The notes beneath the pieces were generated by a model. The model was not told the DNA's origin, made no database searches, and saw only the letters and a list, made by a program, of their open reading frames with translations. A stretch of DNA of 64,000 nt from Eledone cirrhosa (taxonomy: Eukaryota): the NCBI GenBank assembly GCA_964016885.1, contig OZ024741.1, positions 400,768,001 through 400,832,000 of the forward strand, given 5' to 3'. This document shows, one piece after another, positions 12,001-42,209 of this stretch (positions are counted from its first letter, which is position 1; every line of letters starts with the position of its first letter). The translations under genes and the position numbers were made by a program.

Positions 12001-15000
12001 AAGATATGACCAGCTATTGAAGTTGACAGTTTTAGGGTGCAAGATATGACCAGCTATTGAAGTTGACAATTTTAGGGTGCAATATATGACAAGCTATTAC
12101 AGTTGACAGTTTTTGTGTGAAAGATATGACCAGCTATTGAACTTGACAGTTTTAAGGTGCAAGATATGACCAGTTATTGAAGTTGACCGTTTTAGAATTC
12201 AAGTTATGACCAGCTATTGAAGTTGACCGTTTTAGGGTGCAAGATGTGACCAGCTATTGAAGTTGACAGTTTTAGGGTGCAAGATATGACCCGCTATTGA
12301 AGTTGACAGTTTTAGGGTGCAAGATATGACCAGCTATTGATGTTGACACATTTAGCATGAAAGATATGACCAACTATTACAGTTGAAAGTTTTAGGGTGA
12401 AAGATATGACTAGCTATTGAAGTTGACAGTTTTAGGGTGCAAGATATGACCAGCTATTGAAGTTGACAGTTTTAGGGTGCAAAATATGACAAGCTATTGA
12501 AGTTGACAGTTTTAGGGTGAAAGGTATGACCAGCTATTGAAGTTGACAGTTTTAGGGTGAAAAATATGATCAACTATTACAGTTGACAGTTTTAGGGTGA
12601 AAGATATGACCAGCTATTGAAGTTGACAGTTTTTGGTTGCAAGATGTGATCAGCTATTGAAGCTGACAGTTTTAGGGTGAAAATATGACCAGCTATTGAC
12701 GTTGAATGTTTTTGAGTGCAAGATATGACCAGCTATTGAAGTTGACAGTTTTAGTGAGAAAGATATGACCAGCTATTGAAGTTGACAGTTTTAGGGTGCA
12801 AGATATGACCAGCTATTGAACTTGACAGTTTTAGTGTGAAAGATATGACCTGCTATTTAGGTTGACAGTTTTAGGCTGCAAGATATGACCAGCTATTGAA
12901 GTTGACATTTTTAGTGTGCAAGATATGACCAGCTATTGAAGTTGACAGTGTTAGGGTGAAAGATATGACACGTTATTGACGTTGATAGTTTTAGGGTGCA
13001 CGATATGACCATCTATTGAAGTTGACAGTTTTAGGGTGCAAGATATGACCAGCTATTGAAGTTGACAGTTTTAGGGTGAAAGTTATGACCAGCTATTGAA
13101 TTTGATAGTTTTAGGGTGCAAGATATGACCAGCTATTGAAGTTGACAGTTTTAGTGTGAAAGATATAACCAGCTATTGAAGTTGACAGATTTAGTGTGAA
13201 AGATATGACCTGCTATTGATGTTGAACGTTTTAGGGTGCAAGATGTGACTAGCTATTGAAGTTGACACTTTTAGGGTGAAAGATATGACCATCTATTACA
13301 GTTGACAGTTTTAGGGTGAAAGATATGACCAGCTATTGAAGTTGACAGTTTCAGGGTGCAAGATATGACTAGCTATTGAAGTTGACAGTTTTAGGGTGCA
13401 AAATATGACAAGCTGTTACAGTTGACAGTTTTAGGGTGAAAGATATGACCAGCTATTGAAGTTGACAGTTATAGGGTGCAAGATATGACCAGCTATTGAC
13501 GTTCACAGTTTTAGGTTGCAAGATATGACCAGCTATTTCAGTTGACAGTTTTAGGGTGAAAGATATGACCGGCTATTGTAGTTGACAGTTTTAGTGTGAA
13601 AGATATGACCAGCTATTGATGTTGATAATTTTAGGGTGCAAGATATGACGAGCTATTGAAGTTGAAAGTTTTAGGGTGCAAAATATGACAAGCTATTACA
13701 TTTGACAGTTTTAGGGTGAAAGATATGTCCAGCTATTGAAGTTGACAATTTTAGGGTGAAAAATATGACCAGCCATTACAGCTGACAGTTTTAGGGTGAA
13801 AGATATGACCAGCTATTGAAGTTGACACTTTTAGTGTGAAAAATATGACCAGCTATTGACGTTCACAGTTTTAGGTTGCAAGATATGACCAGCTATTGAA
13901 GTTGACAGTTTTAGGGTGCAAGATATGACCAGCTATTGAAGTTGACAATTTTAGGGTGCAATATATGACAAGCTATTACAGTTGACAGTTTTTGTGTGAA
14001 AGATATGACCAGCTATTGAACTTGACAGTTTTAAGGTGCAAGATATGACCAGTTATTGAAGTTGACCGTTTTAGAATTCAAGATATAACCAGCTATTGAA
14101 GTTGACCGTTTTAGGGTGCAAGATGTGACCAGCTATTGAAGTTGACAGTTTTAGGGTGCAAGATATGACCAGCTATTGAGGTTGACAGTTTTAGGGTGAA
14201 AGTTATGACCAGCTATTGAATTTGATAGTTTTAGGGTGCAAGATATGACCAGCTATTGAAGTTGACAGTTTTAGTGTGAAAGATATAACCAGCTATTGAA
14301 GTTGACAGATTTAGTGTGAAAGATATGACCTGCTATTGAAGTTGAACGTTTTAGGGTGCAAGATGTGACTAGCTATTGAAGTTGACACTTTTAGGGTGAA
14401 AGATATGACCATCTATTACAGTTGACAGTTTTAGGGTGAAAGATATGACCAGCTATTGAAGTTGACAGTTTTAGGGTGCAAGATATGACTAGCTATTGAA
14501 GTTGACAGTTTTAGGGTGCAAAATATGACAAGCTGTTACAGTTGACAGTTTTAGGGTGAAAGATAGGACCAGCTATTGAAGTTGACAGTTATAGGGTGCA
14601 AGATATGACCAGCTATTGACGTTCTCAGTTTTAGGTTGCAAGATATGACCAGCTATTTCAGTTGACAGTTTTAGGGTGAAAGATATGACCGGCTATTGTA
14701 GTTGACAGTTTTAGTGTGAAAGATATGACCAGCTATTGATGTTGATAATTTTAGGGTGCAAGATATGACGAGCTATTGAAGTTGAAAGTTTTAGGGTGCA
14801 AAATATGACAAGCTATTACATTTGACAGTTTTAGGGTGAAAGATATTTCCAGCTATTGAAGTTGACAATTTTAGGGTGAAAAATATGACCAGCCATTACA
14901 GCTGACAGTTTTAGGGTGAAAGATATGACCAGCTATTGAAGTTGACACTTTTAGTGTGAAAAATATGACCAGCCATTGACGTTCACAGTTTTAGGTTGCA

Positions 15001-18000
15001 AGATATGACCAGCTATTGAAGTTGACAGTTTTAGGGTGCAAGATATGACCAGCTATTGAAGTTGACAATTTTAGGGTGCAATATATGACAAGCTATTACA
15101 GTTGACAGTTTTTGTGTGAAAGATATGACCAGCTATTGAACTTGACAGTTTTAAGGTGCAAGATATGACCAGTTATTGAAGTTGACCGTTTTAGAATTCA
15201 AGTTATGACCAGCTATTGAAGTTGACCGTTTTAGGGTGCAAGATGTGACCAGCTATTGAAGTTGACAGTTTTAGGGTGCAAGATATGACCCGCTATTGAA
15301 GTTGACAGTTTTAGGGTGCAAGATATGACCAGCTATTGATGTTGACACATTTAGCATGAAAGATATGACCAACTATTACAGTTGAAAGTTTTAGGGTGAA
15401 AGATATGACTAGCTATTGAAGTTGACAGTTTTAGGGTGCAAGATATGACCAGCTATTGAAGTTGACAGTTTTAGGGTGCAAAATATGACAAGCTATTGAA
15501 GTTGACAGTTTTAGGGTGAAAGGTATGACCAGCTATTGAAGTTGACAGTTTTAGGGTGAAAAATATGATCAACTATTACAGTTGACAGTTTTAGGGTGAA
15601 AGATATGACCAGCTATTGAAGTTGACAGTTTTTGGTTGCAAGATGTGATCAGCTATTGAAGCTGACAGTTTTAGGGTGAAAATATGACCAGCTATTGACG
15701 TTGAATGTTTTTGAGTGCAAGATATGACCAGCTATTGAAGTTGACAGTTTTAGTGAGAAAGATATGACCAGCTATTGAAGTTGACAGTTTTAGGGTGCAA
15801 GATATGACGAGCTATTGAACTTGACAGTTTTAGTGTGAAAGATATGACCTGCTATTTAGGTTGACAGTTTTAGGCTGCAAGATATGACCAGCTATTGAAG
15901 TTGACATTTTTAGTGTGCAAGATATGACCAGCTATTGAAGTTGACAGTGTTAGGGTGAAAGATATGACACGTTATTGACGTTGATAGTTTTAGGGTGCAC
16001 GATATGACCATCTATTGAAGTTGACAGTTTTAGGGTGCAAGATATGACCAGCTATTGAAGTTGACAGTTTTAGGGTGAAAGTTATGACCAGCTATTGAAT
16101 TTGATAGTTTTAGGGTGCAAGATATGACCAGCTATTGAAGTTGACAGTTTTAGTGTGAAAGATATAACCAGCTATTGAAGTTGACAGATTTAGTGTGAAA
16201 GATATGACCTGCTATTGAAGTTGAACGTTTTAGGGTGCAAGATGTGACTAGCTATTGAAGTTGACACTTTTAGGGTGAAAGATATGACCAGCTATTACAG
16301 TTGACAGTTTTAGGGTGAAAGATATGACCAGCTATTGAAGTTGACAGTTTTAGGGTGCAAGATATGACTAGCTATTGAAGTTGACAGTTTTAGGGTGCAA
16401 AATATGACAAGCTGTTACAGTTGACAGTTTTAGGGTGAAAGATATGACCAGCTATTGAAGTTGACAGTTATAGGGTGCAAGATATGACCAGCTATTGACG
16501 TTCACAGTTTTAGGTTGCAAGATATGACCAGCTATTTCAGTTGACAGTTTTAGGGTGAAAGATATGACCGGCTATTGTAGTTGACAGTTTTAGTGTGAAA
16601 GATATGACCAGCTATTGATGTTGATAATTTTAGGGTGCAAGATATGACGAGCTATTGAAGTTGAAAGTTTTAGGGTGCAAAATATGACAAGCTATTACAT
16701 TTGACAGTTTTAGGGTGAAAGATATGTCCAGCTATTGAAGTTGACAATTTTACTGTGAAAGATATGACCAGCTATTACAGTTGACAGTTTTAGGGTGAAA
16801 GATATGACCAGCTATTGAAGTTGACAGTTTTAGGGTGCAAGATATGACCAGCTATTGAAGTTGACAGTTTTAGGGTGCAAAATATGACAAGCTATTACAG
16901 TTGACAGTTTGAGGGTGAAAGATATGACCAGCTATTGAAGTTGACAGTTTTAGGGTGCAAGATATGACCAGCTATTGAAGTTGACAGTTTTAGGGTGCAA
17001 AATATGACCAGCTATTGAAGTTGACAATTTTAGGGTGAAAGATATGACCAGCTATTGAAGTTGACAGTTTTAGTGTGAAAAATATGACCAGCTATTGACG
17101 TTGACAGTTTTAGGGTGAAAGATATGACCAGCTATTGAAGTTGACAGTTTGAGTGTGAAAAATATGACCAGCTATTGACGTTCACAGTTTTAGGTTGCAA
17201 GATATGACGAGCTATTGAAGTTGAAAGTTTTAGGATGCAAGATATCACCAGCTATTGAAGTTGACAGTTTTAGGGTGAAAAATATGACCAGCCATTACAG
17301 TTGACAGTTTTAGTGTGAAAGATATAACCAGCTATTGAAGTTGACAGATTTAGTGTGAAAGATATGACCTGCTATTGAAGTTGACCGTTTTAGGGTGCAA
17401 GATGTGACTAGCTATTGAAGTTGACACTTTTAGGGTGAAAGATATGACCAGCTATTACAGTTGACAGTTTTAGGGTGAAAGATATGACCAGCTATTGAAG
17501 TTGACAGTTTTAGGGTGCAAGATATGACTAGCTATTGAAGTTGACAGTTTTAGGGTGCAAAATATGACAAGCTGTTACAGTTGACAGTTTTAGGGTGAAA
17601 GATATGACCAGCTATTGAAGTTGACAGTTACAGGGTGCAAGATATGACCAGCTATTGACGTTCACAGTTTTAGGTTGCAAGATATGACCAGCTATTTCAG
17701 TTGACAGTTTTAGGGTGAAAGATATGACCAGCTATTGTAGTTGACAGTTTTAGTGTGAAAGATATGACCAGCTATTGATGTTGATAATTTTAGGGTGCAA
17801 GATATGACGAGCTATTGAAGTTGAAAGTTTTAGGGTGCAAAATATGACAAGCTATTACATTTGACAGTTTTAGGGTGAAAGATATGTCCAGCTATTGAAG
17901 TTGACAATTTTACTGTGAAAGATATGACCAGCTATTACAGTTGACAGTTTTAGGGTGAAAGATATGACCAGCTATTGAATTTGACAGTTTTAGGGTGCAA

Positions 18001-20445
18001 GATATGACCAGCTATTGAAGTTGACAGTTTTAGGGTGCAAAATATGACAAGCTATTACAGTTGACAGTTTGAGGGTGAAAGATATGACCATCTATTGAAG
18101 TTGACAGTTTTAGGGTGCAAGATATGACCAGCTATTGAAGTTGACAGTTTTAGGGTGCAAAATATGACCAGCTATTGAAGTTGACAATTTTAGGGTGAAA
18201 GATATGACCAGCTATTGAAGTTGACAGTTTTAGTGTGAAAAATATTACCAGCTATTGACGTTGACAGTTTTAGGGTGAAAGATATGACCAGCTATTGAAG
18301 TTGACAGTTTGAGTGTGAAAAATATGACCAGCTATTGACGTTCACAGTTTTAGGTTGCAAGATATGACGAGCTATTGAAGTTGAAAGTTTTAGGATGCAA
18401 GATATCACCAGCTATTGAAGTTGACAGTTTTAGAGTGAAAAATATGACCAGCCATTACAGTTGACAGTTTTAGGGTGAAAGATATAACCAGCTATATAAG
18501 TTGACAGTTTTAGGGTGCAAGATATGACCAGCTATTGAAGTCGACAGTTTTAGGGTGCAAGATATGACCTGCTATTGAAGTTGACTGTTTTAGCGTGAAA
18601 GATATGACCAGCTATTGAACTTGACAGTTTTAAGATGCAAGATATGACCAGTTATTGAAGTTGACCGTTTTAGAGTGCAAGATATGACCAGCTATTGAAG
18701 TTGACCGTTTGAGGGTGCAAAATATGACAAGCTATTGATGTTGACAGTTTTAGGGTAAAATATATGACCAGCTATATCAGTTGACAGTTTTAGGGTGAAA
18801 GATATGACCAGCTATTGAAGTTGACAGTTTTAGTGTGAAAGATATGACCAGCTATTGAAGTTGATAGTTTTAGGGTGCAAGATATGACGAGCTATTGAAG
18901 TTGAAAGTTTTAGGGTGCAAGATATGACCAGCTATTTAAGTTGACAATTTTAGGGTGCATGATATGACCAGCTATTGAAGTTGTCAGTTTTAGGGTGCAA
19001 AATATGACAAGCTATTACAGTTGACAGTTTTAGGGTGAAAGATATGACCAGCTATTGAAGTTGACAGTTTTAGGGTACAAAATATGACAAGCTATTGAAG
19101 TTGACAGTTTTAGGGTGAAAGATATGACCAGCTATTTCAGTTGACAGATTTAGGGTGAAAGATATGACCAGCTATTGAAGTTGACAGTTTTAGTGTGAAA
19201 AATATGACCAGCTATTAACGTTCACAGTTTTAGGTTGCAAGATATGACGAGCTATTGAAGTTGAAAGTTTTAGGATGCAAGATATGACCAGCTATTGAAG
19301 TTGACAGTTTTAGGGTGAAAAATATGACCAGCCATTATAGTTGACAGTTTTAGGGTGAAAGATATGACCAGCTATTGAAGTTGACAATTTTAGTGTGAAA
19401 AATATGACCAGCTATTGACGTTCACAGTTTTAGGTTGCAAGATATGACCAGCTATTGAAGTTGACAGTTTTAGGATGCAAGATATGACCAGCTATTGAAG
19501 TTGACAGTTTTAGGGTGCAATATATGACCAGCTATTGAAGTTGACTGTTTTTGTGTGAAAGATATGACCAGCTATTGAACTTGACAGTTTTAAGATGCAA
19601 GTTATGACCAGTTATTGAAGTTGACCGTTTTAGAATTCAAGATATGACCAGCTATTGAAGTTGACCGTTTTAGGGTGCAAGATATGACCAGCTATTGAAG
19701 TTGACAGTTTTAGGGTGAAAAATATGACCAGCCATTACAGTTGACAGTTTTCGGGTGAAAGATATGACCAGCTATTGAAGTTGACAGTTTTAGGGTGCAA
19801 GATATGACCAGCTATTGAAGTTGAGAGTTTTAGGGTGCAAGATATGACCAGCTATTGAAGTTGACTGTTTTAGTGTGAAAGATATGACCAGCTATTCAAC
19901 TTGACAGTTTTAAGGTGCAAGATATGACCAGGTATTGAAGTTGACCGTTTTAGGGTGCAAGATCTGACCAGCTATTGAAGTTGACAGTTTTAGGGTGCAA
20001 GATATGACCAGCTATTGAAGTTAACAGTTTTAGGGTGCAAGATATGACCAGCTATTGAAGTTGACACTTTGAGGGTGAAAGATATGACCAGCTATTACAG
20101 TTGACAGTTTTTGGGTGAAAGATATGACCAGCTATTGAAGTTGACAGTTTTAGGGTGCAAGATATGACCAGCTATTGAAGTTGACAGTTTTAGGGTGAAA
20201 GATATGACCAGCTATTTCAGTTGACAGTTTTAGGGTGAAAGATATGACCAGCTATTGAAGTTGACAGTTTTAGTGTGAAAGATATGACCAGCTATTGACG
20301 TTGACAGTTTTAGGGAGCAAGATATGACCAGCTATTGAAGTTGACAGTTTTAGGGAGCAAGATATGACCAGCTATTGAAGTTGACAGTTTTATGGTGCAA
20401 GATATGACTTGCTATTGAAGTTGACAATTTTAGGTTGAAAGATAT
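1..20445. repeat. 40-bp tandem satellite array (~510 monomers in window, open at left edge); consensus AAGATATGACCAGCTATTGAAGTTGACAGTTTTAGGGTG(C/A)
   Basis: Continuous 40-bp periodicity with scattered substitutions; register shifts at ~590-620, ~12681 and ~15680; abrupt end at ~20445. Confidence 0.99.
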
Positions 20446-28762: not shown

Positions 28763-29181
28763 ACAAATCCAAATACATAAGTGTATGTTATTATACTAAT
28801 TGGTCACCGGTGAAACATGAAGCACAAGCTCGGTTATTTCCTCAAGATTTACCTGGCAACTTATGTACCCATCTAGTTTATGCTTTTGTGAAAATCAAGG
28901 ATGATTTATCTATATATACATCAGAAGAAAAAGACCTTCAAGGCAACTATGAGAAGTTTAATAATCTTCGAACCCGCTACAACTGCGTTACGATGTTATC
29001 AGTTGGTGGAGAGTCAGCTAAAGCTAGACATTTTGAAATGGCTTCTGGATCTGCTGAAAATAGAACAAAATTTGCTGAAAACATTGTTAATTATGTACGG
29101 AAATATAAATTTGATGGAATTGATATTGACTGGGAGTACCCTAACTCTGAGACTAGACATGACTTCACCTTACTATTAAAG
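28763..29181 (+). CDS. GH18 chitinase, first identified coding exon (catalytic motif)
   Basis: ttttttAG acceptor; KSKYISVCYYTNWS...LCTHLVYAF...SVGG...FDGIDIDWEYP...LLLK; AAG|GTAAGA donor (phase 0); needs an upstream phase-1 exon. Confidence 0.95.
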
Positions 29182-29460
29182 GTAAGACAACATATGCTTT
29201 CTTCTTAATTGCTTTACAAGAGTAGGCAGAAAAGTTTATAGGTTGACTATGAAGGAGTGATGCTAGAGCTGTGAAATCTTACATGCATTAATTTTAACTC
29301 ATTAATAACTGCATTGTTTCTTTCTAGGGACTATGTTGAAAAATAAACCTCATTTGGTCATTCACTGAGAGTATCTTGGCCAGCCTATGAACTTCTCAGC
29401 CAACTCTTGTGTGTATGCATATGTATATATATATATATATTTCTTTATTTACCATAAAGG

Positions 29461-30922
29461 TGTAGCAGTGGCCTCCCTTGTTGTGACTCACAACCCCAAT
29501 AGATTAACAACATCTAGACGGGAAGTAGAACCCTTTCTGTAACTTCCGGTCAGAACCCTATAAAACTAACAACTTTAAGTTCTCTGCTTCTCATTTGCCC
29601 TTCCGGCACCTGGCCTTCGCCAGGCGTCTCGCGTTTGCCTGGCAATCAAAACGGTAACTACTAACTTTGCTACATTCTATCATCTATTACTTTGACATGT
29701 CAATAAAATAGATGAAAGAATGTAGCAAAGTTAGTAGTTACCTCGATGTTGAGAATGCGTTGACCTGGAAGGGTCAAGAGGCTAGCGACCAAAGAAATAA
29801 GCATTCTGAATAAATGCGCAGTTTTCAACGGCAAATTTACGTGGTGAATTTTTAAACCGGCAAATAGGAGAATATAGCTTAAGGCTGAAGAATCCTTGGC
29901 GAGAAACGTTATCTCTGGCGTGCGGCTATCTCTGTGAGTCGAGAATTTGTGCTGCCTACACGTGCCAAGTTAGGTTTAAAAAAATAATATTTCTAACGCG
30001 CGAGAAAATGATAGTGCAAGTGTGAAAGTGACACTGATGAAAAAAAAAGGCTTCACTTAGCATAATTATTGGTGTGAACTTTGGAAAAAAAAACTTGAAC
30101 GATGAAGAAAACGATGAAAAAAAAAAGGCAATGGTTCATCGAAAATAAATGTTCCTGTTGAAATGTTTTTTAAAGAATATCAAATTTCTTTTTTTTTGTT
30201 TTTTGTTTTTTTTTGTTTTGAAAGTGCTCGTTGTAAGAAACGAGAAACATATATATATATCGTGAAATGCGACAGTTAGTTGATGCGTGAGAGAAAAAGT
30301 CTGTCTGAACGCGAATTTCACATGTGCGTGTGTGCTTTTCTTTGAGTATTTTCAGTTTGTCAATAAATTTGCTGTGTATTCGTAATGTTACTCACACAAC
30401 ACCAGATTCTGCTATTTTTTTTTTTTTCGGGGTGACCACTTATAGCGATGAATGGCTGCGTGTTCGTATCACGTCAGGGTTACCAATATAGAAAATAAAT
30501 AGCGGTGTACATGCAACATAATATAAAAGACAGTAAATACTGGTGTGTGTGTGTGCGTAATAAAGTTTTTACTTCATAGAAGTCAAAAGGCATATAATAT
30601 AAGGGTTTGTTACCCGATGGTAATAATACAATTCTGAAGTTGGTAGAAACATCTTAGGCTCTCATCTCAGGCTGCAAGCTGCATTGTGCTTGGTAACGAA
30701 AGGGTCGTCCAGAAGGAATCACAAGCTATGGTCGAAGGGGTTACCACTTCAGGAATCAGGAGGCGAGAGAGAGATTTCGCGGTAAACCGCTCCTTTTATA
30801 TCTGTTGACCGGAAGTGACCACCAGGGAGTCTGGTCAATCCCAAAGGGAAGCAACTCCACCTACTTCCTGTCTAGAGAGCAGTGATTAGATTGTCGTGGC
30901 AGGGGAGGCAACTCTTACTACA
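29461..30922. mobile_element. 1462-bp non-coding TGT...ACA element with imperfect terminal inverted repeats and 4-bp TSD (AAGG); non-autonomous Ginger-like transposon or unusual solo LTR
   Basis: AAGG at 29457-29460 and 30923-30926; ends TGTAGCAGTGGCCTCCCTTG and (reverse complement) TGTAGTAAGAGTTGCCTCCCCTG; removing it restores a Tx1 3' end that aligns with copy 2. Confidence 0.85.
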
Positions 30923-31119
30923 AAGGCATAAAAAGAGGGGACAAATACAAAGGGGGAGTTTACATACAATCGAGTAAAAGGGTATAAAATGAAAATAATC
31001 GAAAACAACCTCAAAAGGGAGGGAACGTGATGGGGGTTACACACACCCCCGAAAAAGTGTGTAATCCTTTGCCCGGGGAGCACATGGAGAATGTGCGCCC
31101 CTCTCCTTCACTTCTTTAC

Positions 31120-34100
31120 CTACAGGATGGTATACAGAGAAGGCCCATTTACACGAGCCATTCTCGCCACTATCACCCACCTTTCATAAAACTGGCTGTG
31201 GTCAAGCACCTCTCTCTCCATTCTTATCCTTCTTCCGAAGTGATATCGGAAGAAGTAGACCAGACTATGGCCAGAGAGGAAGTTGCCTGACCTCAGACCT
31301 TTCAATCGTGTCCACCAAACAACCTCTTTCAACATGGCTATTACGCACAGAAAAACCGCCTTTGCTTCCTTTGTGAAGAGGGGAGGCGGTTTGATTGTCA
31401 TCACAGACTCGGCGGTCAATTGAATCGGCGCCACCCGCGACAGCAGTCGTTCGGCGTAGCCCCACAGATCAGCCACGCCCGGACATTGCACCAATGCGTG
31501 CGCAACGGTTTCTTCGTGACGCACGCATCTAGGGCAAATCTTTTTCGAGGGATCCCTGCCCGGGCGCCCGTGTCTGTAGAGCCTCTCTCGAACGGGTAGA
31601 GTCCCCGGTAGCACTGCCAGGCTAGTGACTTCTGGAAGTTGTCCAGTGGTCCCGGGCCGAAAGTCCTACCGAACAGGCTGGCCAGTTCGTCCTCTTCCAT
31701 GTCCAGCGACTCTCCAAGGGTGTCATCGCCCCTGCTAGCCACCAGCCCTCTATAGAATAATGAGGTGGATTCTCCACCGATGGCCTGGCCCGCTTGCCAG
31801 AGAGCCCTGAGCGCCTGAGCACACTCAGTGTACCAGTCTCCCAGTTTTCCGGATCTTTGCTTGACCCAGGACTGCAGCTCGGTGAGCGAGACGAGTCTCG
31901 GAAAGGCTCGTTTCACGAACGGAGCCCACACCGGTTGACCAGTGAGGAATACCTGTAGGTGCCGTAGCCTTAATGCGTGCCTACGCATCATCAACCACGG
32001 CATCCCCAGCCCTCCTTTCGAAGGTTGTTGGCAGCAGATGGATCTTCTCAACATAGGAGGGCGCTTCTTCCAAAGAAATTGGAAGAGCATGCGTTCCATG
32101 GTGGTGAGTGTTTCCTTAGGGCAAGGCACGACAGTCAGGCTGTAGTAAGTGACGGACGCTATGTAAATTTTCGCCCCCTCCGTCCGGCCTTTTAGGGACA
32201 GCTTACACTTGGCCCATTTCTGGGTTAGTGCAAACACCTTGTTCGTAACCTCGTCCCAGTTCTTTTCCACCTGGAAGTCCGGTCCAAACCAGACTCCAAG
32301 CAACTTTACCGGGCCCTCCGTCCAGTGTCCGACGACACCGTCGGGAGGCATCGGTCTGCCTCTCCACGTTCCGAGTTGCAGCCCGATGGATTTTTCCCGG
32401 TTCAGTTTCGCTCCTGACAACCTTTCGTAATCCTCCAGTAAGGTACCGATCGCCTCGACCTCCGAGTCGGTCGATACCATTACTGTTACGTCATCGGCGT
32501 AGGCCGACACCGCTTTGCTCAATCCTGGTTCCAAGGGGATACCCTGCAACAACTCCAACTTCCTCAGTAAAGGCTCGAGAGTCAATACGTACAGAAGGGA
32601 GGAGAGAGGGCACCCCTGTCGAATGGATCGTGTGATTTCGAACGGCTTCGAAAGGTGGCCGTTCACCTTGATCCTAGAACAGATGTGGTTGCTATGTAAG
32701 GCAGTGATCCAACCTCTGAAAACAGGACCGAACCCAGCCGCCGCTAGCACCGCATCCAGGTAACCATGGTCGACCCTATCGAAGGCCTTAGACTGATCCA
32801 AGTTGATCAGGGCCCCACCGAAGCCGGGTTTGTTGCCAACCCTCTCTATGATGTATCGCATGAGGTGGAGGTTATCGTGAATGGACCTGGATGGGATAGC
32901 ACATGTCTGCGCATCTCCCACCAGGCCACCCACGACAAGCGCCAACCTCTTTGCTAACACCTTGGCCAAAATCTTTAACTCTGTGTTTAGCAGGGTTATG
33001 GGCCGAAAATTATTTATGCTATCCCCCTTGTTCTCGCCCTTCCTCACCAGCGAGAATACGCCCTTGGCTACAGAACAAGGAATTCTCCCGTTCTGCTGCC
33101 AATTGCAGTAGACCGCTTCGAGGAGTTCGGAGAAGAAGACCGGCATTGCTAAATAAAGTTCGTAAGGTATACCATCGAGACCTGGAGATTTGCATCTGCT
33201 GCATTGGCTCAGCGCATCCCCGATCTCATCAGCCGAGATTGGTCCCTCGCAGGACTCTGCCTCTTCGCTCGAGAGACGCGGCAGGCCGTCGAGGTATGGA
33301 CCGAAATCCACGTCCCCGCCCGGACCCTCGCCTTCCCCGAATAATCGGGCAAAGTGCCTTTGAAAGGCCTCGCACATCTGCTTAGGCTCCCGGATCACCC
33401 GTCCATCCTCGTCTTGCAACGACCGGATGGTGGATCGATTTCCACTCTTAGCTTCTGTCACGCGGGCCCAGCCAACGGCTTTGGCCCCCTCATTACCTAG
33501 AGCACGTATTTTACTTCGAATGACGCAGCCTTCGTGCTTTGCATCGAAAAACTGGTTCAAGGCCGTCCTCGATGCCAGCACTCTGGCCACATCTTCGCTC
33601 TTGATTGCCTCTTTTAATTTACCTGTTAATTCTTTCTCGTTTCTATTCCTATCGGCAGCTAACATCTTGCTATAACTTATTGATTCTGTTCTAATCTCTC
33701 TTTTGAGAGATGCCCACCATCGGTTGTTGACGATTGCACCCGTCAACCTCTCCTTAACTAATCTGCTAATCCGGTTTCTGTAAGTCTCTTTTGCCGGTAA
33801 AGACAAATTAAGTTTCCAGTAACCGGGACCCTGTTTATGTGTTTTCTCGAGATTGACTACGCAGGTCACTAATTTGTGATCCGTATAGCCAACCGTGCGC
33901 ATTTCTGGACAGCTTAATATGTCCCTATCCTTACTTCTAACTAAGAATCTATCTAAGTACGATCTAGATTGACCACTGTGGTTTCTCCAAGTCCAGGTAG
34001 GCACAGTTGGAAAATCTAGTCGATATCTATCGACCAAGTTAAAACGGTCGAGTAATCCCTTGAGGCTGTTGCACCCCCCTCTATTAGGACATGCTCCTGC

Positions 34101-34556
34101 ATAGTCCCAACGTGCATCTAGGATGTCATTCCAATCCCCCGCTAGAAGCAGGGAACGCGATGTTCCCAGAAAAGTCTCCAAACGCTGGAAGAAGTCGGGC
34201 CGTTCAGCTCCGAAAGGGGAGTAGACGGCGACCAGTCTCAAGGCCGCACCTTCACTACTGCCAACCTCTAGCACCAACAAACGACCCTCCGGGTCCGAGT
34301 GAACAACCTGTACGGCAAGACCCAGGTGTTTTTGCAGCAGTATGACAACCACACTCCCACCTCCAGGTTGACAGAGAGATGCATGCACCTCAAAGTCATT
34401 GAAGGTAGGGGCCAGCTGCCGCACGACGCTGATCCGAGTCTCACAGATAACCATTACATTTATACCACATGACCTGAGGTCATTTAGAAGCTTTGCATGC
34501 TTCCAAGTTGAGCCCAGGCCACGTGCATTCAAACATCCTACTCTTAACACATCCAT
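31120..34556 (-). pseudogene. Tx1 copy 1 ORF2 (APE endonuclease + RT + C-terminal zinc finger) with one frameshift at ~31603-31606
   Basis: LNARGL, ICET, GDWN, SYLDRF, TDH; DQSKAFD, RQGCPLS, YADD; C-terminal CPRC...H...C continues in ORF 31120-31614. Confidence 0.92.
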
Positions 34557-34589
34557 GTGGGCGGCAGAGCCAAAGGAGAGTGTAGAGAC

Positions 34590-36407
34590 CTACCTTTCTG
34601 CTTCCCGGGGTTCGGGTCGTACGACTTCCATGGCGTCGGGGGTGTTGGGTGAAGGGGTGTCATGTGGTGGTGTGGGGTCGTCAGTGTGTGGTGAGGTTGG
34701 GGTGTTTGGAGTTGTGTTGGGGAGGGGAAGGGGAGGGGGAAAGCTTTTTAGTAGGACGCGGTTTATGGGTTTGACAGAGGGTGGTCCTACGTCCTCCTTA
34801 AAATCCTTTTTAAGTTTTTGGTAGAGGTTCATTGGGATCTTTATTAGTTTTAAATGTGGGTAGTTTTCTGAAGAAACAAAGTTTACACCTTCGGTTTGTA
34901 CCGAAGGATTATTGTTTATGAGTTCATTTAATTTATTATTGTTTCTGTTGATGTAAGTATAGTGTAATGTCTTTTTTTCGGATGGTGTGAGTGTTTCGAA
35001 GAGGGGAGGGGCAGGTTTGGTTTTGTTTGTTGCTGGAGGGGCGTTTTGTGTTTTGTTGGATTGTGTTGACATTTGGGTGTGGGTTGTTTGGCCTTGTGTG
35101 TTTTGCACATGTTTTCTTTTTTTCCTTTTAATCTGTCTGAAGGACTCCGTTTCTTCCTCCGAATTCGTTGGGTTATCTTCAGTGTTGGAGGGAAGAGGTA
35201 TGTTTGCTGGTAATGTTTCCGTGTTGGTTTTCTTTGTGGGGGAGATGGATGTCACTATGTTAGACTGTGTTGTGTGTTGTGGCTGCGGTGGTTGTGTTGT
35301 TTTATTGAGTGAGGGGTTGGGTGGGCCTGTATTTTGTTTTGGGGTAATGTGTTGTGACTGTTTGTGTTGTGGTGGTGGTGTAGTTTTACTGAGGGACGGG
35401 TTGGGTGGGACTGAGTTTTGTTGTTTGTTTATCTGTTGTGGTGGTGGTGGTGGTGGAGCTGGTGTTGGTAGCAGGGTTTTCTTTTTGTTGAGTTGGGGAC
35501 AAGCCGCCTTCAGGTGCCCTCTGCCTGCACAGATATGACAGGACGGCCTTCTCCTCTCCACGCTTATGTTTATATACCCGTAGCCCTCTAATAGGATTCT
35601 GTCGGGTATTTGGGCGATGCGTTCAGGCTTCATTTGCACTACAAGTTCTATACCTGTTCCACTGAACGCATTGCCTGTGGTTTTCCCAATGGAAATCACG
35701 TTGTCATTCGCTGGATCGATGAAGCCAGCTATGAGCCAGCAGTAGTCCACATCTGGCATCATTGCATCCAGCCATATGCGTTGAGTTCTTTTACCCATAT
35801 AAGATGGATAAAAGGTAAAATTTTTCGAACGAATCGGTGACAAAGCACATTTTTTTGCCGCCGATTCGTTCTTCATAATAATCGCTAGGCTTCCATACAG
35901 TCTGTCTTTTCTTATGAAAGTGGTTTCATTAAGTACTTCTGTAAGTACTGTTTTGATTTCTGTTTGAGTTGGCTGTTCAGGTTTTTTAGAAATATTGTTG
36001 ATGGTGCGGAAAACGACCGTTCGACTTTCAATGTCTTTGGTGAGTTCTTGAGGCATTTTTACCGATAAAATACCATTTTCTCCTTCAGTTATGTATTGTT
36101 TGGCGTCTGTAATTCTTTCTGCCACATCTGAAATATTTTCAGGTATACATGTCAAAGATTTCTTTGTTGTTTGTGCAAATGAAATATTATTGGTGTTGAC
36201 TTTGCCGTCTGCTTTGCTTTCTGTTATGATGTTGTTTTCAAATGTTATTTTTGTGTTTGTCGTGTCTTTGTTTGTGGTATTAATATTGTCATGCAATTTT
36301 TCGAACTTTTTTTTTTCGTTGTTGCAATCAATGTCCAGATTTGTGTTTTCGTCATTTTTCTCCGCAGATTCGTCTGTTTTTATTTTATTTTTTCTTTCCT
36401 TCTCCAT
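34590..36407 (-). CDS. Tx1 copy 1 ORF1 (gag-like nucleic-acid-binding protein)
   Basis: 605-aa ORF with CHICAGRGHLKAAC zinc knuckle, Pro/Thr/Gln-rich tail and KRKKRK basic patch, directly upstream of ORF2. Confidence 0.88.
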   Translation of the reverse strand: MEKERKNKIKTDESAEKNDENTNLDIDCNNEKKKFEKLHDNINTTNKDTTNTKITFENNIITESKADGKVNTNNISFAQTTKKSLTCIPENISDVAERITDAKQYITEGENGILSVKMPQELTKDIESRTVVFRTINNISKKPEQPTQTEIKTVLTEVLNETTFIRKDRLYGSLAIIMKNESAAKKCALSPIRSKNFTFYPSYMGKRTQRIWLDAMMPDVDYCWLIAGFIDPANDNVISIGKTTGNAFSGTGIELVVQMKPERIAQIPDRILLEGYGYINISVERRRPSCHICAGRGHLKAACPQLNKKKTLLPTPAPPPPPPQQINKQQNSVPPNPSLSKTTPPPQHKQSQHITPKQNTGPPNPSLNKTTQPPQPQHTTQSNIVTSISPTKKTNTETLPANIPLPSNTEDNPTNSEEETESFRQIKRKKRKHVQNTQGQTTHTQMSTQSNKTQNAPPATNKTKPAPPLFETLTPSEKKTLHYTYINRNNNKLNELINNNPSVQTEGVNFVSSENYPHLKLIKIPMNLYQKLKKDFKEDVGPPSVKPINRVLLKSFPPPLPLPNTTPNTPTSPHTDDPTPPHDTPSPNTPDAMEVVRPEPREAER

Positions 36408-37020
36408 GACGTTAGTTGGGAAGGAAGGGGAGACTAAAGCGTGCGAGCTTACAACTCTTACCGCTGTCCCCCCACCACTATTTCGTTAGCTTCGTTTAAC
36501 ATTTCTGTCAGACGATTGAAATTTTTTTGCCACAAAATTTTTAAAAACAGGTTTTTCACCCCTAGGAGGGGTAAAGATGAGCTGACCCACCGCCTGACAG
36601 TTCAGACGGGGGGGGGGGTCAAGCTACACAATAGTATCAAAATTAAAATTGAACTTACAAAATTTCCGCAATAAATTTGAACAAAACTTCTGCGCGAAGT
36701 GAATTACATCCACACTGTAGAACAGACGACAGCTAGATCTCTATGTATATATATATATATATGTTTCTTTTATTTGCCACCAGGGCATCAAAAGTGGGAC
36801 AAGTACAAGGGGGGAGTTTACACAAAAAGGCGTCCTCAATAAGGAGGAGGCAATAACAATATATAAAAATAATATATAACAAAAAAATAAAATTTATAAC
36901 AAAATCCTCAATAGAGAGGAGGCGCCTTGGGGGGTCGCACACACCCCCGAAAAAAGTGTGCAACCCTTTTCCTCAGCAGCTCAGAGAGGGGGTGCTCCCT
37001 CGTTCCTTCCTCTTTTCCCC

Positions 37021-40000
37021 CTACAGGCTTATGTAAAGAGAAGGCCCATTCACACGGGCCATTCTCGCCACTTTCACCCACCTTTCATAGAAACGGCTGG
37101 GGTGCAGCACCTCTCTCTCCATCCTGATCCTTCTTCCGAAATGATATCGGAAGAAACGGACCAGTTGTTGGCCAGAGAGAAAGGTGCCTGACCTCAGTCC
37201 TTTCAGACGCGTCCACCATACAACCTCTTTCGCCATGGCTATTACGCACAGAAACACCGCCTCTGCTTCATCTTTGAAGTGGGGAGGCGGCTTGATCATT
37301 ACAATAGACTCGGTGATCAACCGGATCGGTCCCACCCTTGACAGCAGTTGTTCGACATAGCCCCACAGATCGGCTACGCCCGAGCAGTGTACCAATGCGT
37401 GTGCAACGGTTTCCTCGTCGCACACGCATCTGGGACAGATCTTTTTGGCGGTGTCCCTACCCGGGCGCCCGTGTCTGTAGAGCTTTTCTCGAACGGGTAG
37501 AGCCCCTCGGTAGCACTGCCAGGCCAGGGACTTCTGGAAGTTGTCCATAGGTCCCGGGCTGAATGTCCTACCGAACAGGCTGGCCAGTTCGTCCTCCTCC
37601 ATGTCTAGGGCTTCTCCGAGGGCGTCGTCGCACCTGCTGCGTATCAGCCCTCTATAGAATGTTGCAGTGGAGTCTCCACTGATAATCGGATCCGCCTGCC
37701 AGAGGGCGGTGAGCGCCTGGGCACACTCAGTGTGCCAGGCGCCCAGTTTTCTCGGTCTTTGCTTGACCCAGGATTGCAGCTCGGTGAGTGAGACGAGTCT
37801 GGGAAAGGTTCGTCTCACAAACGAGGCCCACACCGGTTGACCGGTGAGGAATACGTAGAGGTGCCGTAGCCTTAATGCGTGTTTACGCATCATTAGCCAC
37901 GGCATCCCCAGCCCTCCTTTCGAAGGGTGTTGACAGCAGATGGATCTCCTCACCATAGGAGCCCGCTTCTTCCAAAGGAATTGGAAGAGCGCGCGCTCCA
38001 TCTTGGTGAGGGTTTCCCTTGGGCAGCGCACTACGGACAGGCGGTAGTAGATGACGGACGCTATAAAGGTGTTCGCCACCTCCGCCCGACCTTTCAGGGA
38101 TAGTTTGCAACTGGCCCACTTCTGGGTCAGTGCAAACACCCTGTTCGTAACCTCCGCCCAGTTTTTCTCCACCTGGAGGTCCGGTTCGAACCAGACCCCG
38201 AGCAACTTCACCGGGCCCTCCGTCCAGCGTCCGACGACGCCATCGGAGGGCATCGGTCTGCCCCTCCACGTGCCGAGTTGCAAACCGATCGACTTGTCCC
38301 GGTTCAGCTTAGCCCCTGTGAACCTTTCGTACTCCTCCAGTAAGGTGCCGACCGCCTCGATTTCGGAGGCCGTCGACACCATTACTGTCACGTCATCGGC
38401 GTAGGCCGACACCGCTTTCCGCAATCCCGGTTCCAAAGGGATGCCCTGCAACAACTCCAACTTCCGCAGTAGTGGCTCGAGAGTCAACACATACAGAAGG
38501 GAGGAGAGAGGGCACCCTTGTCGGATGGACCGCGCGATTTTGAACGGCTCCGAGAGGTAGCCGTTCACCTTGACCCTAGAGAAGATGCGGTCGCTGTGCA
38601 TAGCAGTGATCCAGCCCCTGAAACCGGGTCCGAAGCCTGCCGCCGCTAGCACCGCATCCAGGTAACCATGGTCGGCCCTATCGAACGCCTTAGATTGATC
38701 CAAGTTGATCAGAGCCCCACCAAAGCCGGGTTCGTTCCCAACCCTCTCTATGATGTATCGCATGAGGTGGAGGTTGTCATGGATGGACCTGGACGGGATA
38801 GCGCATGTCTGCGCATCTCCCACCAGGTTGCCCACGACAAGCGCCAACCTCTTTGCTAGCACCTTGGCCAAAATCTGAAACTCTGTATTTAGCAGAGTTA
38901 TGGGCCTGAAGTTACTTATTTCGTCCCCCTTGTTCTCGTCCTTCCTCACTAGCGTGACTACGCCCTTGGTCACAGTACAGGGAATTCTCCCGTTCTGTTG
39001 CCAGTTGCAGTAGACCGCCTCGAGGAGATCGGGGAACAAGTCCGGCATAGCTAGATATAATTCGTAAGGAAGACCATCGAGACCCGGGGATTTGCGTTTG
39101 CCGCATTGGCTCAGCACGTCCTCTATCTCAGCGGCCGAAATCGGCTCCTCGCAGGACTTCGCCTCCCTGTCCGAGAGACGCGGCAGGCCGTCGAGGTATG
39201 GACCGAAGTCCACGTTCCCAACCGGCTCCCCGCCCCTCCCGAACAGTCGGGCAAAGTGCCTTTGAAAGGCCTCACACATCTGCTTAGGCTCAAGAATCGC
39301 CCGTCCATCCAGGTCTCGCAAAGACCGGATGGTGGATTTAGTTCCACTCTTGGTCTCTGTCACGCGGGCCCAGCTAACAGCTTTGGTCCCCTCGTTCCCT
39401 AGAGCACGTATTTTACTTCGGACAACGCAGCCTTCGTGCTTCGCGTCGAAAAACTGGCTCAAAGCCGTTCTCGACGCTAGCATTCTGGCCACGTCGCCGC
39501 TTCTAATTGCCTCTTCTACTCTATCTATTAACTCCCTTTCCTTCCTATTCCTATCCGCAGCTAGAACCTTACTAAATTCTATCGAGACTACTCTAATCTC
39601 TCTCTTTAGAGATACCCACCACCTGCTGTTGACGATCGCTCCAGTCAACCGTTCCTTAACTAACGTACTAATCCGATCCCTGTAAGCTCTACTTGCCGGC
39701 AAGGACAAGTTGAGCTTCCAGTAACCGGGGCCCTGTCTATGCGTTCTATCAAGGTTGACCATGCAGGTCACCAACTTGTGGTCTGAATAGCCAACCATGA
39801 GCATTTCTGGACAACTTAAAAAGTCCCTGTCCTTATTTCTAACTAAAAATCTATCTAGGTACGACCTAGATGATCCGCTGCGATTTGACCAAGACCAGGT
39901 TGGCACCGTCGGAAAATCTAGTCGAAATCTATCGGCCAGGTCAAATCAGCCGAGTAACCCCTCGAGGCTGTTGCACCCCTCTCTATCGGGACATGCCCCT

Positions 40001-40458
40001 GCATAGTCCCAACGTGCATCCAGGATACCATTCCAATCCCCCACTAAAAGCAGGGAACGGGACGTCCCTAGAAAAGACTCCAGACGCTGGAAAAAGTCGG
40101 GCCGCTCTGTCCCAAAAGGGGCATATGCGGCTACCAGCCTAAAGGCTCTACCTTCACCACTGCCAAGGTCCAGCACCACCAGTCGACTCCCTGGGTCCAA
40201 GTGAACTATCTGTGTTGCAAGGCCCAGATGTTTTTGCAGCAGAACGACAACCCCACCCCCACCTCCGGGCTGACAGAGAGATGCGTGCATCTCAAAGTCG
40301 TCAAAGGTGGGGGCTAGCTGCCGCATGTTGCTGATCCGGGCCTCGCAGATAACCATCACATTTATAGATTGTGACCTGAGGTCATTTAGAAGCATTGCTT
40401 GCTTCCAAGATGAGCCCAGGCCACGCGCATTTAGACACCCTACTCTTAGCACAGCCAT
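37021..40458 (-). pseudogene. Tx1 copy 2 ORF2 with one in-frame TGA at 39946-39948
   Basis: ORFs 39946-40482 and 37021-39906 share a frame; the TGA aligns with an Arg codon in copy 1. Confidence 0.92.
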
Positions 40459-40482
40459 GTTGGTGGAAAGGAGAAAAGGCAC

Positions 40483-42209
40483 TTACCTCTCTGCGTCCCG
40501 GGAAACGGGCCGCTCAATTTCCATGCTGGTTGGGGATGGGTTGTTGGGTGGGGTGGTGATTTGTGGAAGTGAAGGGGCATCGGTGTGTTGTGGGGTTGGG
40601 GTGTTTGTGGTTGAGTGGGTGTCTGGGGGGGGGGGTTTAGGAGGACGCGGTTGATTGGTTTGGCGCAGGGGGGGCCCACGTCCTCCGTGAAATTTATTTT
40701 CAGTGTTTTGTACAAGTTCATTGGGACTTTAATCATTTTTAAATGAGGTAGTCCCACAGCAGTTATAAAGTTAGGCCCTTCAGTTTGGACCGAAGGGTTT
40801 GCTGAAATTGTTTTCCGTAATTCTTTGTTGTCTGTGTTCATGTATGTATATTGTAAGGTCTTTTTTTGTGTAGCAGTTAGTGTTGTGTGACAGGGAGGGG
40901 TGGTTTGTGTGTAGTTTGTGTTCTCTTGGGGGGGGGGGGGGTTAAAGTTAACATGTGTGTCTGTGGTGCGTCTCCTCTTCTTTCTTTTTACTTGTTGGAA
41001 GGGATCTTTTTCGTCTTGCGACGAAAGGGGTTCGTCTTCCTTGTTGGGTGGGAGGGGTATGTTTTCTGGTAGTGTTTGCGGTGTGTATGTTTTTGTATTT
41101 GTTTTGGGTAAGGAGGGATTGGGTGGGACAGTATTCTGTGTTATTTTTTCACGTGTTTGTTGTTGTTGTTGTGGTGGTGGTGGTGGTGGTGTTGTTGGTT
41201 TTTGTTGTTGTTGTTGTTGTGGTTGTTTTTGTTGTTGTTGTTGGGGTGGTGTTGGTGTTGGTAGCAGTGTTTTTTTCTGTGTGAGCTGGGGACAGGCAGC
41301 CCTCAGGTGACCTCTATTGCCACAGAGGTAACAGGAGGGACGCCTACCCTCCACAATAATGTTGAGGTGGGTATGGTCATCCAGCATGACGCGCTCAGGG
41401 ATTTGGGCGATGCGTTCTGGCCTTATTTGGGTCAGAACTTCGATGCTCGTTCCACTGAACGCGTGGCCGGATGCCTTTCCTATTGAAATGAGGTTGTCCT
41501 CGTCTAAATTGAGGAAACCGGTTAGTAACCACCAGTAGCTTATGTTTGGGGTGATGGTGGTTATCCATATCCTCTGGGTTTTTTTACCCATGTAGGTGGG
41601 GAAGAAGGTGTAGTGTGTGGAACGAATTGGCGACACAGAGTATTTTTTCGCCGCCAATTCGTCTTTCATCAATATGGATAAACTCCCATAGAGTTTATCC
41701 TTTTGTATAAAAGTGATGTCTCTCATCGCTTCTTTCAGTACTAACTGAATTTCAGCTTGAGATGGTTGTGCTGGTTTTTTTGTTTTATTTAAAATTGTCC
41801 GGAATACGACAGTTCGTAATTCCGTCTGTTTTTTTAGTTCTGGGGGTGAATGTATAGAAAACGAACCGTTTTCGCCAAAAGATACATATTTCTTGGCTTT
41901 TTCCAGCATTTCTTTTGCTTTTGAAATATCTTCCAGCACATACGCGACTGATAATTTAGCCGTTTGTGCAAAAGATATTTTGTTTTCGTTGTTGGTGTTT
42001 GTATTGTTTTGTTTCTCGTCGTTTGAGTTGTTTTCATCTTTGTTGTTGTTGTTGTCTTTCTCGTTTGGTGTGTGGATGCTTGTGACGTTTGTGTTGTTGT
42101 TGTTTTTGTTGTCTTTATTGTTGCTGTTGTTGTCGTTGTTGTTGTTGTTGTTTTCAATTTTTTGTATAGTTGTGGCTACATCTAGTGGTCGGTCAACAGG
42201 TGAAGACAA
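40483..42209 (-). CDS. Tx1 copy 2 ORF1; apparent frameshift in the G11 run at 40625-40635; start uncertain
   Basis: CYLCGNRGHLRAAC knuckle; alternative frame ends MEIERPVSRDAER*, matching copy 1 MEVVRPEPREAER*. Confidence 0.82.

What the first reader, a model, noticed from the sequence alone, without database searches (positions are those of the whole stretch)
29461..30922. TGT...ACA element with mirror-image ETS + TATA promoter-like modules facing inward from both ends
Seen: a precise insertion with AAGG TSD. Beyond the ~20-bp TIR the two ends diverge except for ordered blocks: TCTAGAC(G/A)GGAAGTAG (29513-29528 / 30861-30876), ACTTCCGGTCA (29542-29552 / 30806-30816) and TATAAAA (29559-29565 / 30794-30800). 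No credible internal ORF. Established: CCGGAAGT is the ETS consensus; TGT termini with 4-bp TSD fit Ginger DNA transposons or gypsy LTRs. Inference: selective retention of these motifs suggests two convergent Pol II promoters in a non-coding mobile unit, which could make dsRNA or represent inverted LTR-like ends. I do not recognise this architecture.
Basis: partly seen in the sequence, partly recalled or inferred. Interest (0 to 1): 0.75.

Follow-up and report, generated by a model that had tools for sequence, protein, structure and literature searches.

The report
Chimeric retrotransposon with inward-facing LTRs
This 1.5-kb insertion is one broken retrotransposon copy that joins the promoter-bearing start ends of two sister jumping-gene families, both facing inward; it likely arose as a copying accident and likely cannot move again, though look-alike accidents recur elsewhere in this genome.

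Summary
Empty sites prove the AAGG duplication (14 of 14 host-repeat copies). The left end is the first 243 bp of the LTR of a 2-kb non-coding LTR family (A). The right end is the whole LTR of a 5.9-kb Gypsy family (B) with CsRn1-clade marks, inverted, followed by a primer site and about 740 bp of A's interior. The mirror blocks are ordinary U3 promoter motifs of these LTRs (1,861 hits genome-wide). The strand turn lies on a 12-bp palindrome native to LTR-A, and the two hairpin arms match two different standing LTR-A variants. All three joints are single-copy and there is no polypurine tract. Best reading: one integrase-inserted cDNA, assembled by template and polarity switching in a mixed A/B particle (about 0.7); joint integration of two cDNAs is the main rival. 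Four other insertions with two inward-facing U3 ends turned up. The scan has noted such inverted elements before on other DNA of this genome. TGT...ACA ends with a 4-bp duplication mimic Ginger transposons and bear on their proposed Gypsy origin. Transcription is untested.

The parts
29457..29460 (+). Left target-site duplication AAGG
   Evidence: empty sites in 14 of 14 host-repeat copies
29461..29703 (+). First 243 bp (U3 and, inferred, part of R) of LTR-A, the ~340-bp LTR of a ~2-kb non-coding LTR family; lacks the LTR's last ~100 bp with the candidate poly(A) signal
   Evidence: 99% to the LTR of L029; nearest copies 0.9-1.7% substitutions
29513..29565 (+). U3 promoter blocks of LTR-A: two opposed GGAAGT (ETS-like, consensus recalled) and TATAAAA; start predicted near 29590
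   Evidence: in 67, 44 and 69 of 74 LTR-A contexts; function not tested
29692..29703 (.). 12-bp palindrome TTGACATGTCAA, native to LTR-A; the point where polarity turns
   Evidence: the fold-back joint pattern occurs at 1 locus genome-wide
29698..29742 (-). Second hairpin arm = LTR-A positions 193-243 of another standing LTR-A variant
   Evidence: 4 of 51 positions differ from arm 1; one difference from the LTR in L131
29743..30467 (-). 5' part of family A's interior; the last ~540 bp, the polypurine tract and LTR positions 1-192 are missing at the joint 29742/29743. 29745-29882 and 30221-30269 are shared with the 3' interior of family B (93%, 85%)
   Evidence: joint single-copy with up to 1 mismatch
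30468..30485 (-). Primer-binding site of tRNA-Trp type, in the variant seen in family A
   Evidence: compared with the site published in PMC2582038
30487..30922 (-). Complete LTR of the 5.9-kb Gypsy family B; the last ~17 nt of U5 carry A-like bases, so the B/A crossover lies just before the primer site
   Evidence: nearest copies 1.6-1.9% substitutions; joint pattern single-copy
30794..30876 (-). U3 promoter blocks of LTR-B; start inferred near 30769
   Evidence: in 34, 33 and 36 of 37 LTR-B contexts; joints at LTR-B position 154 in L118 and L123
30923..30926 (+). Right target-site duplication AAGG
29430..36485 (-). Host: a multi-copy LINE-like element (endonuclease + RT frame 31419-34589), interrupted about 30 bp from its 3' tail; it lies behind a GH18 chitinase-like exon (open frame through 28801-29181, +), apparently in an intron

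Best explanation
The unit is a single insertion that joins, inside one 4-bp duplication, the start (U3) ends of two sister LTR families in opposite orientation, and it was likely made as a faulty cDNA in a particle that held RNA of both families and then likely pasted in by family B's integrase. Shown: the parts list, the single insertion, and that the two hairpin arms match different LTR-A variants. Inferred steps: (1) a minus strand begun on family-A RNA left R at LTR position 193 and resumed ~740 nt downstream of the primer site, skipping the polypurine tract; (2) plus-strand strong-stop DNA of family B was transferred to it at the U5/primer-site boundary, giving LTR-B + A interior; (3) the growing plus strand reached the self-complementary 12-mer, paired with the same 12-mer in a second plus-sense LTR-A template (a spare strong-stop DNA or the uncopied 3' end of an A RNA) and copied it backwards to its first base; (4) both ends were now TGT...ACA U3 ends that integrase could use. 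With no polypurine tract and no 3' R, the copy would be a dead end for retrotransposition. Its two intact U3 promoters would drive convergent RNA, a by-product that could feed silencing of both families.
For: One insertion event: empty sites 14 of 14; both families make 4-bp duplications of varied sequence (25 of 30 A and 7 of 11 B elements found automatically). Both ends stop exactly at LTR base 1. 29 of 29 fetched relatives of the interior carry LTR-A on both sides in direct orientation. A and B recombine often before integration: the 40 best LTR-B hits (of 918 candidates) make 29 insertions, of which 7 are direct A/B chimeras (6 with an exact 4-bp duplication) and 5, this one included, are A/B with an inversion (exact duplications in L132, L134, L120; 3 of 4 bases in L119). 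Joints in other copies fall on natural ends of copying intermediates: LTR-B 154 (L118, L123) and the primer site (L132). Arm 1 is the commonest LTR-A variant (21 of 61 contexts differ only at 211); arm 2 carries three linked states of another variant (3 of 61, plus L131). [quoted passage not shown]
Against: Both arms share a rare base at LTR-A position 211 (0 of 61 other contexts; 1 other locus genome-wide), which two independent templates do not explain without later conversion between the arms. The joint at 29742/29743 shows no clear microhomology. The model needs three switches and probably three template molecules, or an A parent with unlike LTRs. The sequence alone cannot tell switching during reverse transcription from joining of two cDNAs at integration. 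The LTR-B census is biased to copies most like this LTR. L120's right end is truncated and its duplication ambiguous.
Confidence: 0.7

Rival explanations
1. Two separate cDNAs from one particle were integrated together, each giving its U3 end to the same integrase complex; the host then trimmed the two free inner ends and joined them at the shared 12-bp palindrome.
For: Fits the single 4-bp duplication, the arms from two variants and the mix of U3-U3, U5-U5 and direct A/B products. Two-donor integration by retroviral integrases in vitro is recalled, from no call.
Against: Joints in L118, L123 and L132 sit on the ends of reverse-transcription intermediates, which random trimming would not favour. 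L134 and L153 have normal outer ends with an inverted piece inside, which needs two polarity switches in one molecule. The LTR-B + A-interior half still needs a strand transfer between families.
Confidence: 0.18
2. Two independent insertions (an A element, and a B/A chimera in the other orientation) landed at or inside one another and a later deletion removed the middle.
For: Nested A-in-B and A-in-A insertions exist (L022, L151). Inverted tandem LTR elements from double insertion are reported in Drosophila (PMC5932611, passages).
Against: Double insertion leaves the target duplication at the joint (same paper); no AAGG lies at either internal joint. Target sites are not specific (29 different 4-mers among 32), so a second hit on the same base, or a deletion ending exactly at the far duplication, is very unlikely, and would have to have happened at each of the other units too.
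Confidence: 0.05
3. A non-autonomous Ginger-like or MITE-like DNA transposon, or a selected two-way promoter cassette, that moves as a unit through its TGT...ACA ends.
For: TGT...ACA ends, a short inverted terminal match, 4-bp duplication, no coding frame.
Against: Every base is accounted for by LTR families A and B. Three joints are single-copy. The inverted match is 19 nt at 79%, against 40-270 bp (Ginger1) or 50-180 bp (Ginger2); AAGG is neither CCGG/CCGT nor the core of RTATAY (PMC2836005). The other U3-U3 units differ from each other in make-up.
Confidence: 0.04
4. Assembly or long-read fold-back artefact at the hairpin.
For: Zero-spacer hairpins are a known chimera type in long reads (recalled).
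Against: An artefact would copy one arm exactly; here the arms differ by standing family variants. The whole unit is bounded by a duplication proven by empty sites, and other inverted units have their own duplications.
Confidence: 0.03

Closest known systems
CsRn1 clade of Ty3/Gypsy LTR retrotransposons (CsRn1, PwRn1, AgCR; PMC2582038, passages and one section read)
   Same: Parent family B has the CX2HX9CX3C Gag motif, tRNA-Trp-type primer site, 4-bp unspecific duplication and TGT...AAA LTR ends; family A has TGT...ATA ends and the same primer type.
   Different: The unit itself has no direct LTRs, no polypurine tract and no coding frame, and both of its ends are U3 ends, from two families.
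Template-switch recombinants of LTR elements: complex insertions (PMC1950507, first half read), inter-family recombination (PMC6894440, passages), asymmetric-LTR HIV-1 proviruses (PMC9278108, passages)
   Same: One insertion with one duplication built from two co-packaged RNAs; an intact 5' LTR and a deletion running from the interior into the 3' LTR.
   Different: Those products keep one polarity and end U3...U5 (the HIV paper counts rare internal inversions only); here polarity turns and the product ends U3...U3.
Ginger1/Ginger2 DNA transposons (PMC2836005, passages and Discussion read)
   Same: TGT...ACA termini and a 4-bp duplication. The paper proposes that Ginger1 terminal repeats came from two LTRs in opposite orientation.
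   Different: No long inverted repeat, no Ginger target preference, no transposase, single copy. The paper invokes two separate insertions; here inverted ends arise in one insertion.
DIRS retrotransposons (PMC3950715, search listing only; rest recalled)
   Same: Inverted terminal repeats on a retro-element.
   Different: DIRS use a tyrosine recombinase and, as recalled, make no target duplication; this unit has one, and its partner family encodes an rve integrase.

Membership tests
CsRn1 clade (parent families A and B) | Gag CHCC motif CX2HX9CX3C | tested here: met
   9 of 10 family-B copies; Gag matches DUF7041. Family A is non-coding.
CsRn1 clade (parent families A and B) | Primer-binding site for tRNA-Trp | tested here: met
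   Sites after LTR-B and LTR-A fit the site printed in PMC2582038; no tRNA gene of this genome was fetched.
CsRn1 clade (parent families A and B) | 4-bp target duplication without sequence preference | tested here: met
   25 of 30 A and 7 of 11 B elements; 29 different 4-mers among 32.
CsRn1 clade (parent families A and B) | LTR termini TGT...AAA or TGT...ATA | tested here: met
   LTR-B ends in AAA, LTR-A in ATA.
CsRn1 clade (parent families A and B) | Gypsy domain order RT-RNase H-integrase | tested here: met
   Pfam RVT_1, RT_RNaseH, Integrase_H2C2, rve in this order in one natural frame of L072.
CsRn1 clade (parent families A and B) | Placement with CsRn1 in an RT/Pol tree | not tested
   No reference Pol sequences were fetched; the clade call rests on the features above.
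Canonical LTR retrotransposon or TRIM (the unit itself) | Two like LTRs in direct orientation | tested here: not met
   LTR-A 1-243 on +, LTR-B on -.
Canonical LTR retrotransposon or TRIM (the unit itself) | Polypurine tract before a 3' LTR | tested here: not met
   The part of A's interior that holds it is missing.
Ginger1/Ginger2 DNA transposon | TGTNR termini | tested here: met
   Both ends begin TGTAG.
Ginger1/Ginger2 DNA transposon | Terminal inverted repeats of 40-270 bp (Ginger1) or 50-180 bp (Ginger2) | tested here: not met
   19 nt at 79%; further in, only short blocks agree.
Ginger1/Ginger2 DNA transposon | Target CCGG/CCGT (Ginger1) or RTATAY (Ginger2) | tested here: not met
   Duplication AAGG.
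Ginger1/Ginger2 DNA transposon | Dispersed copies of the unit with the same two ends, or a transposase inside | tested here: not met
   Joints single-copy; no frame over 89 codons.
DIRS | No target duplication (recalled); tyrosine recombinase | tested here: not met
   4-bp duplication proven; partner family has rve integrase.
Convergent promoter cassette | Transcription from both ends and dsRNA or small RNA | not testable with these tools
   Needs stranded, locus-resolved RNA data.

The most novel reading that the evidence does not exclude
In this CsRn1-like lineage polarity switching is a routine output of replication, perhaps because the unusual CHCC nucleocapsid motif suppresses mis-priming poorly. 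It yields, in one step, TGT...ACA-bounded units with 4-bp duplications: the terminal layout of Ginger DNA transposons. Such units are a living model of the proposed Gypsy-to-Ginger1 transition (one that enclosed an integrase frame would be a proto-DNA transposon), and their convergent promoters make them self-made silencing loci against both parent families.
Probability: 0.17. Interest if true: 0.75.

Novelty: new variant of a known kind. Interest (0 to 1): 0.4.

Why it matters
As a single copy it is a dead by-product. As a class it shows that this integrase likely accepts two U3 ends, even from different families, and that inverted products are not rare here: 3 units among 170 motif hits in a position-ordered sample, about 33 genome-wide if that stretch is typical (range 7-96). 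This gives a one-step route to inverted terminal repeats, where the Ginger paper calls the chain of events from LTR element to DNA transposon unclear. It also predicts loci that make double-stranded RNA against active retrotransposons, and warns that such units will be mis-annotated as MITEs or Ginger elements. The 11 A/B chimeras among 28 other LTR-B insertions point to co-packaging of a non-autonomous family with its helper.

Tried and rejected
Sequencing runs: no RNA holder listed. Contigs of four runs (one study, at most two samples) laid on the unit and on the joint at 29742/29743 gave no piece bridging a joint (table cut); the samples may be other individuals, so this is no evidence either way. 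Simple self-copying fold-back as origin of the hairpin: rejected because the arms match different standing variants. An LTR-B/A-interior subfamily as parent: only 1 other of 40 scored loci (of 953 candidates) spanned that joint at length (L084 = L118) and the exact joint pattern is single-copy. Helenus/Ajax TRIMs with small-RNA promoters (PMC10886601, passages): no tRNA- or 5S-like part was seen in these LTRs by eye; no Rfam or tRNA scan was run. A genome-wide count of inward-facing pairs could not be made in one search; a position-ordered sample was used instead. Of 6 inward-facing pairs in it, 3 were not U3-U3 units (L153, L154 internal inversions; L156 two separate insertions). Multiple alignment of whole LTR-A with LTR-B was uninformative. 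Literature searches listed no paper on insertions with two inward-facing U3 ends; two searches returned nothing; subscription papers and supplements were not seen, so older retroviral work may hold precedents. The two GGAAGT blocks are also inverted repeats of each other and could pair; no compensatory change shows in four LTR types (by eye), so this was left open.

Full report
Observation. The two ends are homologous beyond chance (score 74.5, shuffles 32.5 +/- 7.1, 0 of 2000). The sequence right of the unit is a multi-copy LINE-like repeat; 14 of 14 other fetched copies run on from the left-flank sequence through a single AAGG, so the 1,462 bp are one precise insertion with a 4-bp duplication. 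The host repeat lies behind a GH18 chitinase-like exon in a 3.0-Gb genome.

What the parts are. A search of the genome (40 of 2633 candidates scored) shows that 29743-30491 is the 5' interior of a ~2-kb non-coding element, family A. In 29 of 29 fetched copies it lies between two ~340-bp LTRs in direct orientation (some partly deleted). Window 29461-29703 is the first 243 bp of that LTR, but on the opposite strand to the interior. Window 30487-30922 is the whole LTR of another family, B, whose full copies are 5.9 kb and encode Gag, RT, RNase H and integrase. B has the CX2HX9CX3C motif in 9 of 10 copies. LTR-B ends in AAA and LTR-A in ATA, both are followed by a tRNA-Trp-type site, and both families make varied 4-bp duplications (25 of 30 and 7 of 11 found automatically). 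These are the marks of the CsRn1 clade in PMC2582038 (passages and one section read); no tree was built. A shares pieces of B's 3' interior at 80-93% and is likely mobilised by B. Read on the minus strand the unit is: LTR-B, primer site, ~740 bp of A interior, a jump to LTR-A position 193, 51 nt up to the palindrome TTGACATGTCAA, a turn, and LTR-A backwards to base 1. Both ends are U3 ends, hence TGT...ACA, whereas normal copies end TGT...ATA or TGT...AAA.

The mirror blocks. They are the conserved U3 motifs of sister LTRs: 67, 44 and 69 of 74 LTR-A contexts and 34, 33 and 36 of 37 LTR-B contexts carry them (one LTR may count twice where loci overlap), a third LTR type has close variants, and the first block has 1,861 exact hits in the genome against 7 for the reversed control. 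That they are ETS sites and a TATA box is recalled consensus, not tested.

Is the unit mobile? The fold-back joint, the deletion joint (1 mismatch allowed) and the LTR-B/primer-site joint each match only this locus. It has no polypurine tract and no 3' R. Its parts differ from their nearest fetched relatives by 0.9-1.6% substitutions, so it is fairly young.

How it formed. The two hairpin arms differ at 4 of 51 positions. Arm 1 is the commonest LTR-A variant (21 of 61 contexts, but for position 211). Arm 2 has three linked states of another variant seen in 3 of 61 contexts, and differs by one base from the LTR in L131. So two LTR-A templates contributed, and plain self-copying is unlikely. Against a clean two-template story, both arms share a rare base at 211, found at one other locus genome-wide; conversion between the arms is my guess. 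The B/A crossover lies in the last ~17 nt of U5 and the primer site is of the A variant. This fits a plus-strand transfer between molecules, as proposed for HIV-1 proviruses with an intact 5' LTR and a deletion into the 3' LTR (PMC9278108, passages), and the Ty1/Ty3 scheme in which spare plus-strand strong-stop DNAs accumulate and the primer site is not inherited from the tRNA (PMC5371799, section 2.2). A plus strand ending in a self-complementary 12-mer can pair with another plus-sense copy and turn back; that step is my inference. The deletion joint shows no clear microhomology. Joint integration of two cDNAs with repair at the palindrome gives the same product and is the main rival.

Context in the genome. 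The 40 best LTR-B hits (of 918 candidates; biased to this LTR variant) make 29 insertions: 10 full B, 4 solo LTRs, 3 deleted B, 7 direct A/B chimeras (6 with exact duplications, L138 none found) and 5 A/B with an inversion: this unit, L132 (U5-U5, exact), L134 (normal ends, inverted A piece inside, exact), L119 (U5-U5, 3 of 4 bases) and L120 (one end truncated, ambiguous) (classes assigned by eye). L118 is a further U5-U5 unit with an exact duplication. In a position-ordered sample, the first 205.2 Mb of contig C1, the motif has 170 hits (counted by hand) and 6 inward-facing pairs within 2.5 kb. Three are U3-U3 units: L149 and L152 with exact 4-bp duplications, L148 in a TA run where the duplication says little. 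Two are internal inversions or complexes (L153, L154) and one is two separate insertions (L156). L155, just beyond the interval, is a fourth U3-U3 unit with an exact duplication. Scaled up, about 33 such units (7-96). Those four join two LTRs of one type; the window's unit is the only one seen with ends from two families, which is why its ends look like diverged terminal repeats with islands of identity. Earlier notes of this scan describe inverted CsRn1-like elements on other DNA of this genome; I did not see their loci, and a look-up by this sequence found none.

Comparison with what is known. It works like a template-switch recombinant of co-packaged LTR RNAs (PMC1950507, first half read; PMC6894440, passages) with an added polarity turn. 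It is not a Ginger: the inverted match is too short, the target is wrong, there is no transposase and no second copy (PMC2836005). That paper calls the path from LTR element to DNA transposon unclear and suggests two LTRs in opposite orientation from separate insertions; the units here show inverted U3 ends arising within one insertion. Double insertion would leave the duplication at the joint (PMC5932611, passages); none is there. HIV-1 nucleocapsid suppresses self-priming of strong-stop DNA (PMC6088434, passages); that the CHCC variant does so less well is speculation. Nine searches listed no report of U3-U3 insertions; the library lacks most subscription papers and I read no supplements.

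Verdict. A real, single, likely dead chimeric insertion made of known parts by a variant of a known process; not a new mobile unit. The recurring class is of moderate interest. Convergent transcription is untested. Interest 0.4.

Noticed in passing
L118 (G000:C2:26311500-26320000), 2640-4825: Unit with two U5 ends and an exact 4-bp duplication; the inversion joint lies at LTR-B position 154, the inferred end of minus-strand strong-stop DNA, with a few bases of microhomology.
   Followed up: partly
L132/L143 (G000:C2:47284384-47291100): ~6.7-kb U5-U5 unit: most of a B element joined in opposite orientation to an A element that starts inside its primer site; exact duplication. It encloses B's pol region.
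   Followed up: partly
L148, L149, L152, L155 (contig C1): Four U3-U3 units of 650-790 bp made of two LTRs of one type, near-palindromic over most of their length.
   Followed up: partly
L153 2040-2530; L154 4170-4660: An inverted LTR-B with its primer site inserted so that two primer-site regions face each other behind an LTR-A.
   Followed up: no
L126 (G000:C4:174094000-174103500), 3490-7911: Three-LTR complex (A, A, B) inside one 4-bp duplication, like the Triticeae complexes.
   Followed up: partly
L123 3426-3825; L144 817-988: Mosaic LTRs with U3 of one family and R-U5 of the other.
   Followed up: partly
window 30425-30486 (-): Family A's primer site seems to run on for about 36 nt in likeness to the tRNA 3' half (recalled comparison, not tested) and is followed by a second U5-end/primer-site-like stretch.
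   Followed up: no
L022 1487-1500: Another A element deleted from almost the same interior position (about 763 against 759 here) into the 3' LTR; a possible hot spot.
   Followed up: partly
L009, L025: A elements whose two LTRs differ at 27 and 22 of 323 positions, while most differ at 0-10; likely born with unlike LTRs, which would inflate LTR-based ages.
   Followed up: no
window 1-20000: Very even composition with strong GC skew (about 0.35), likely a long tandem array.
   Followed up: no
window 31419-42209 (-): Two diverged LINE-like copies in tandem (about 80% alike), with long open frames.
   Followed up: partly
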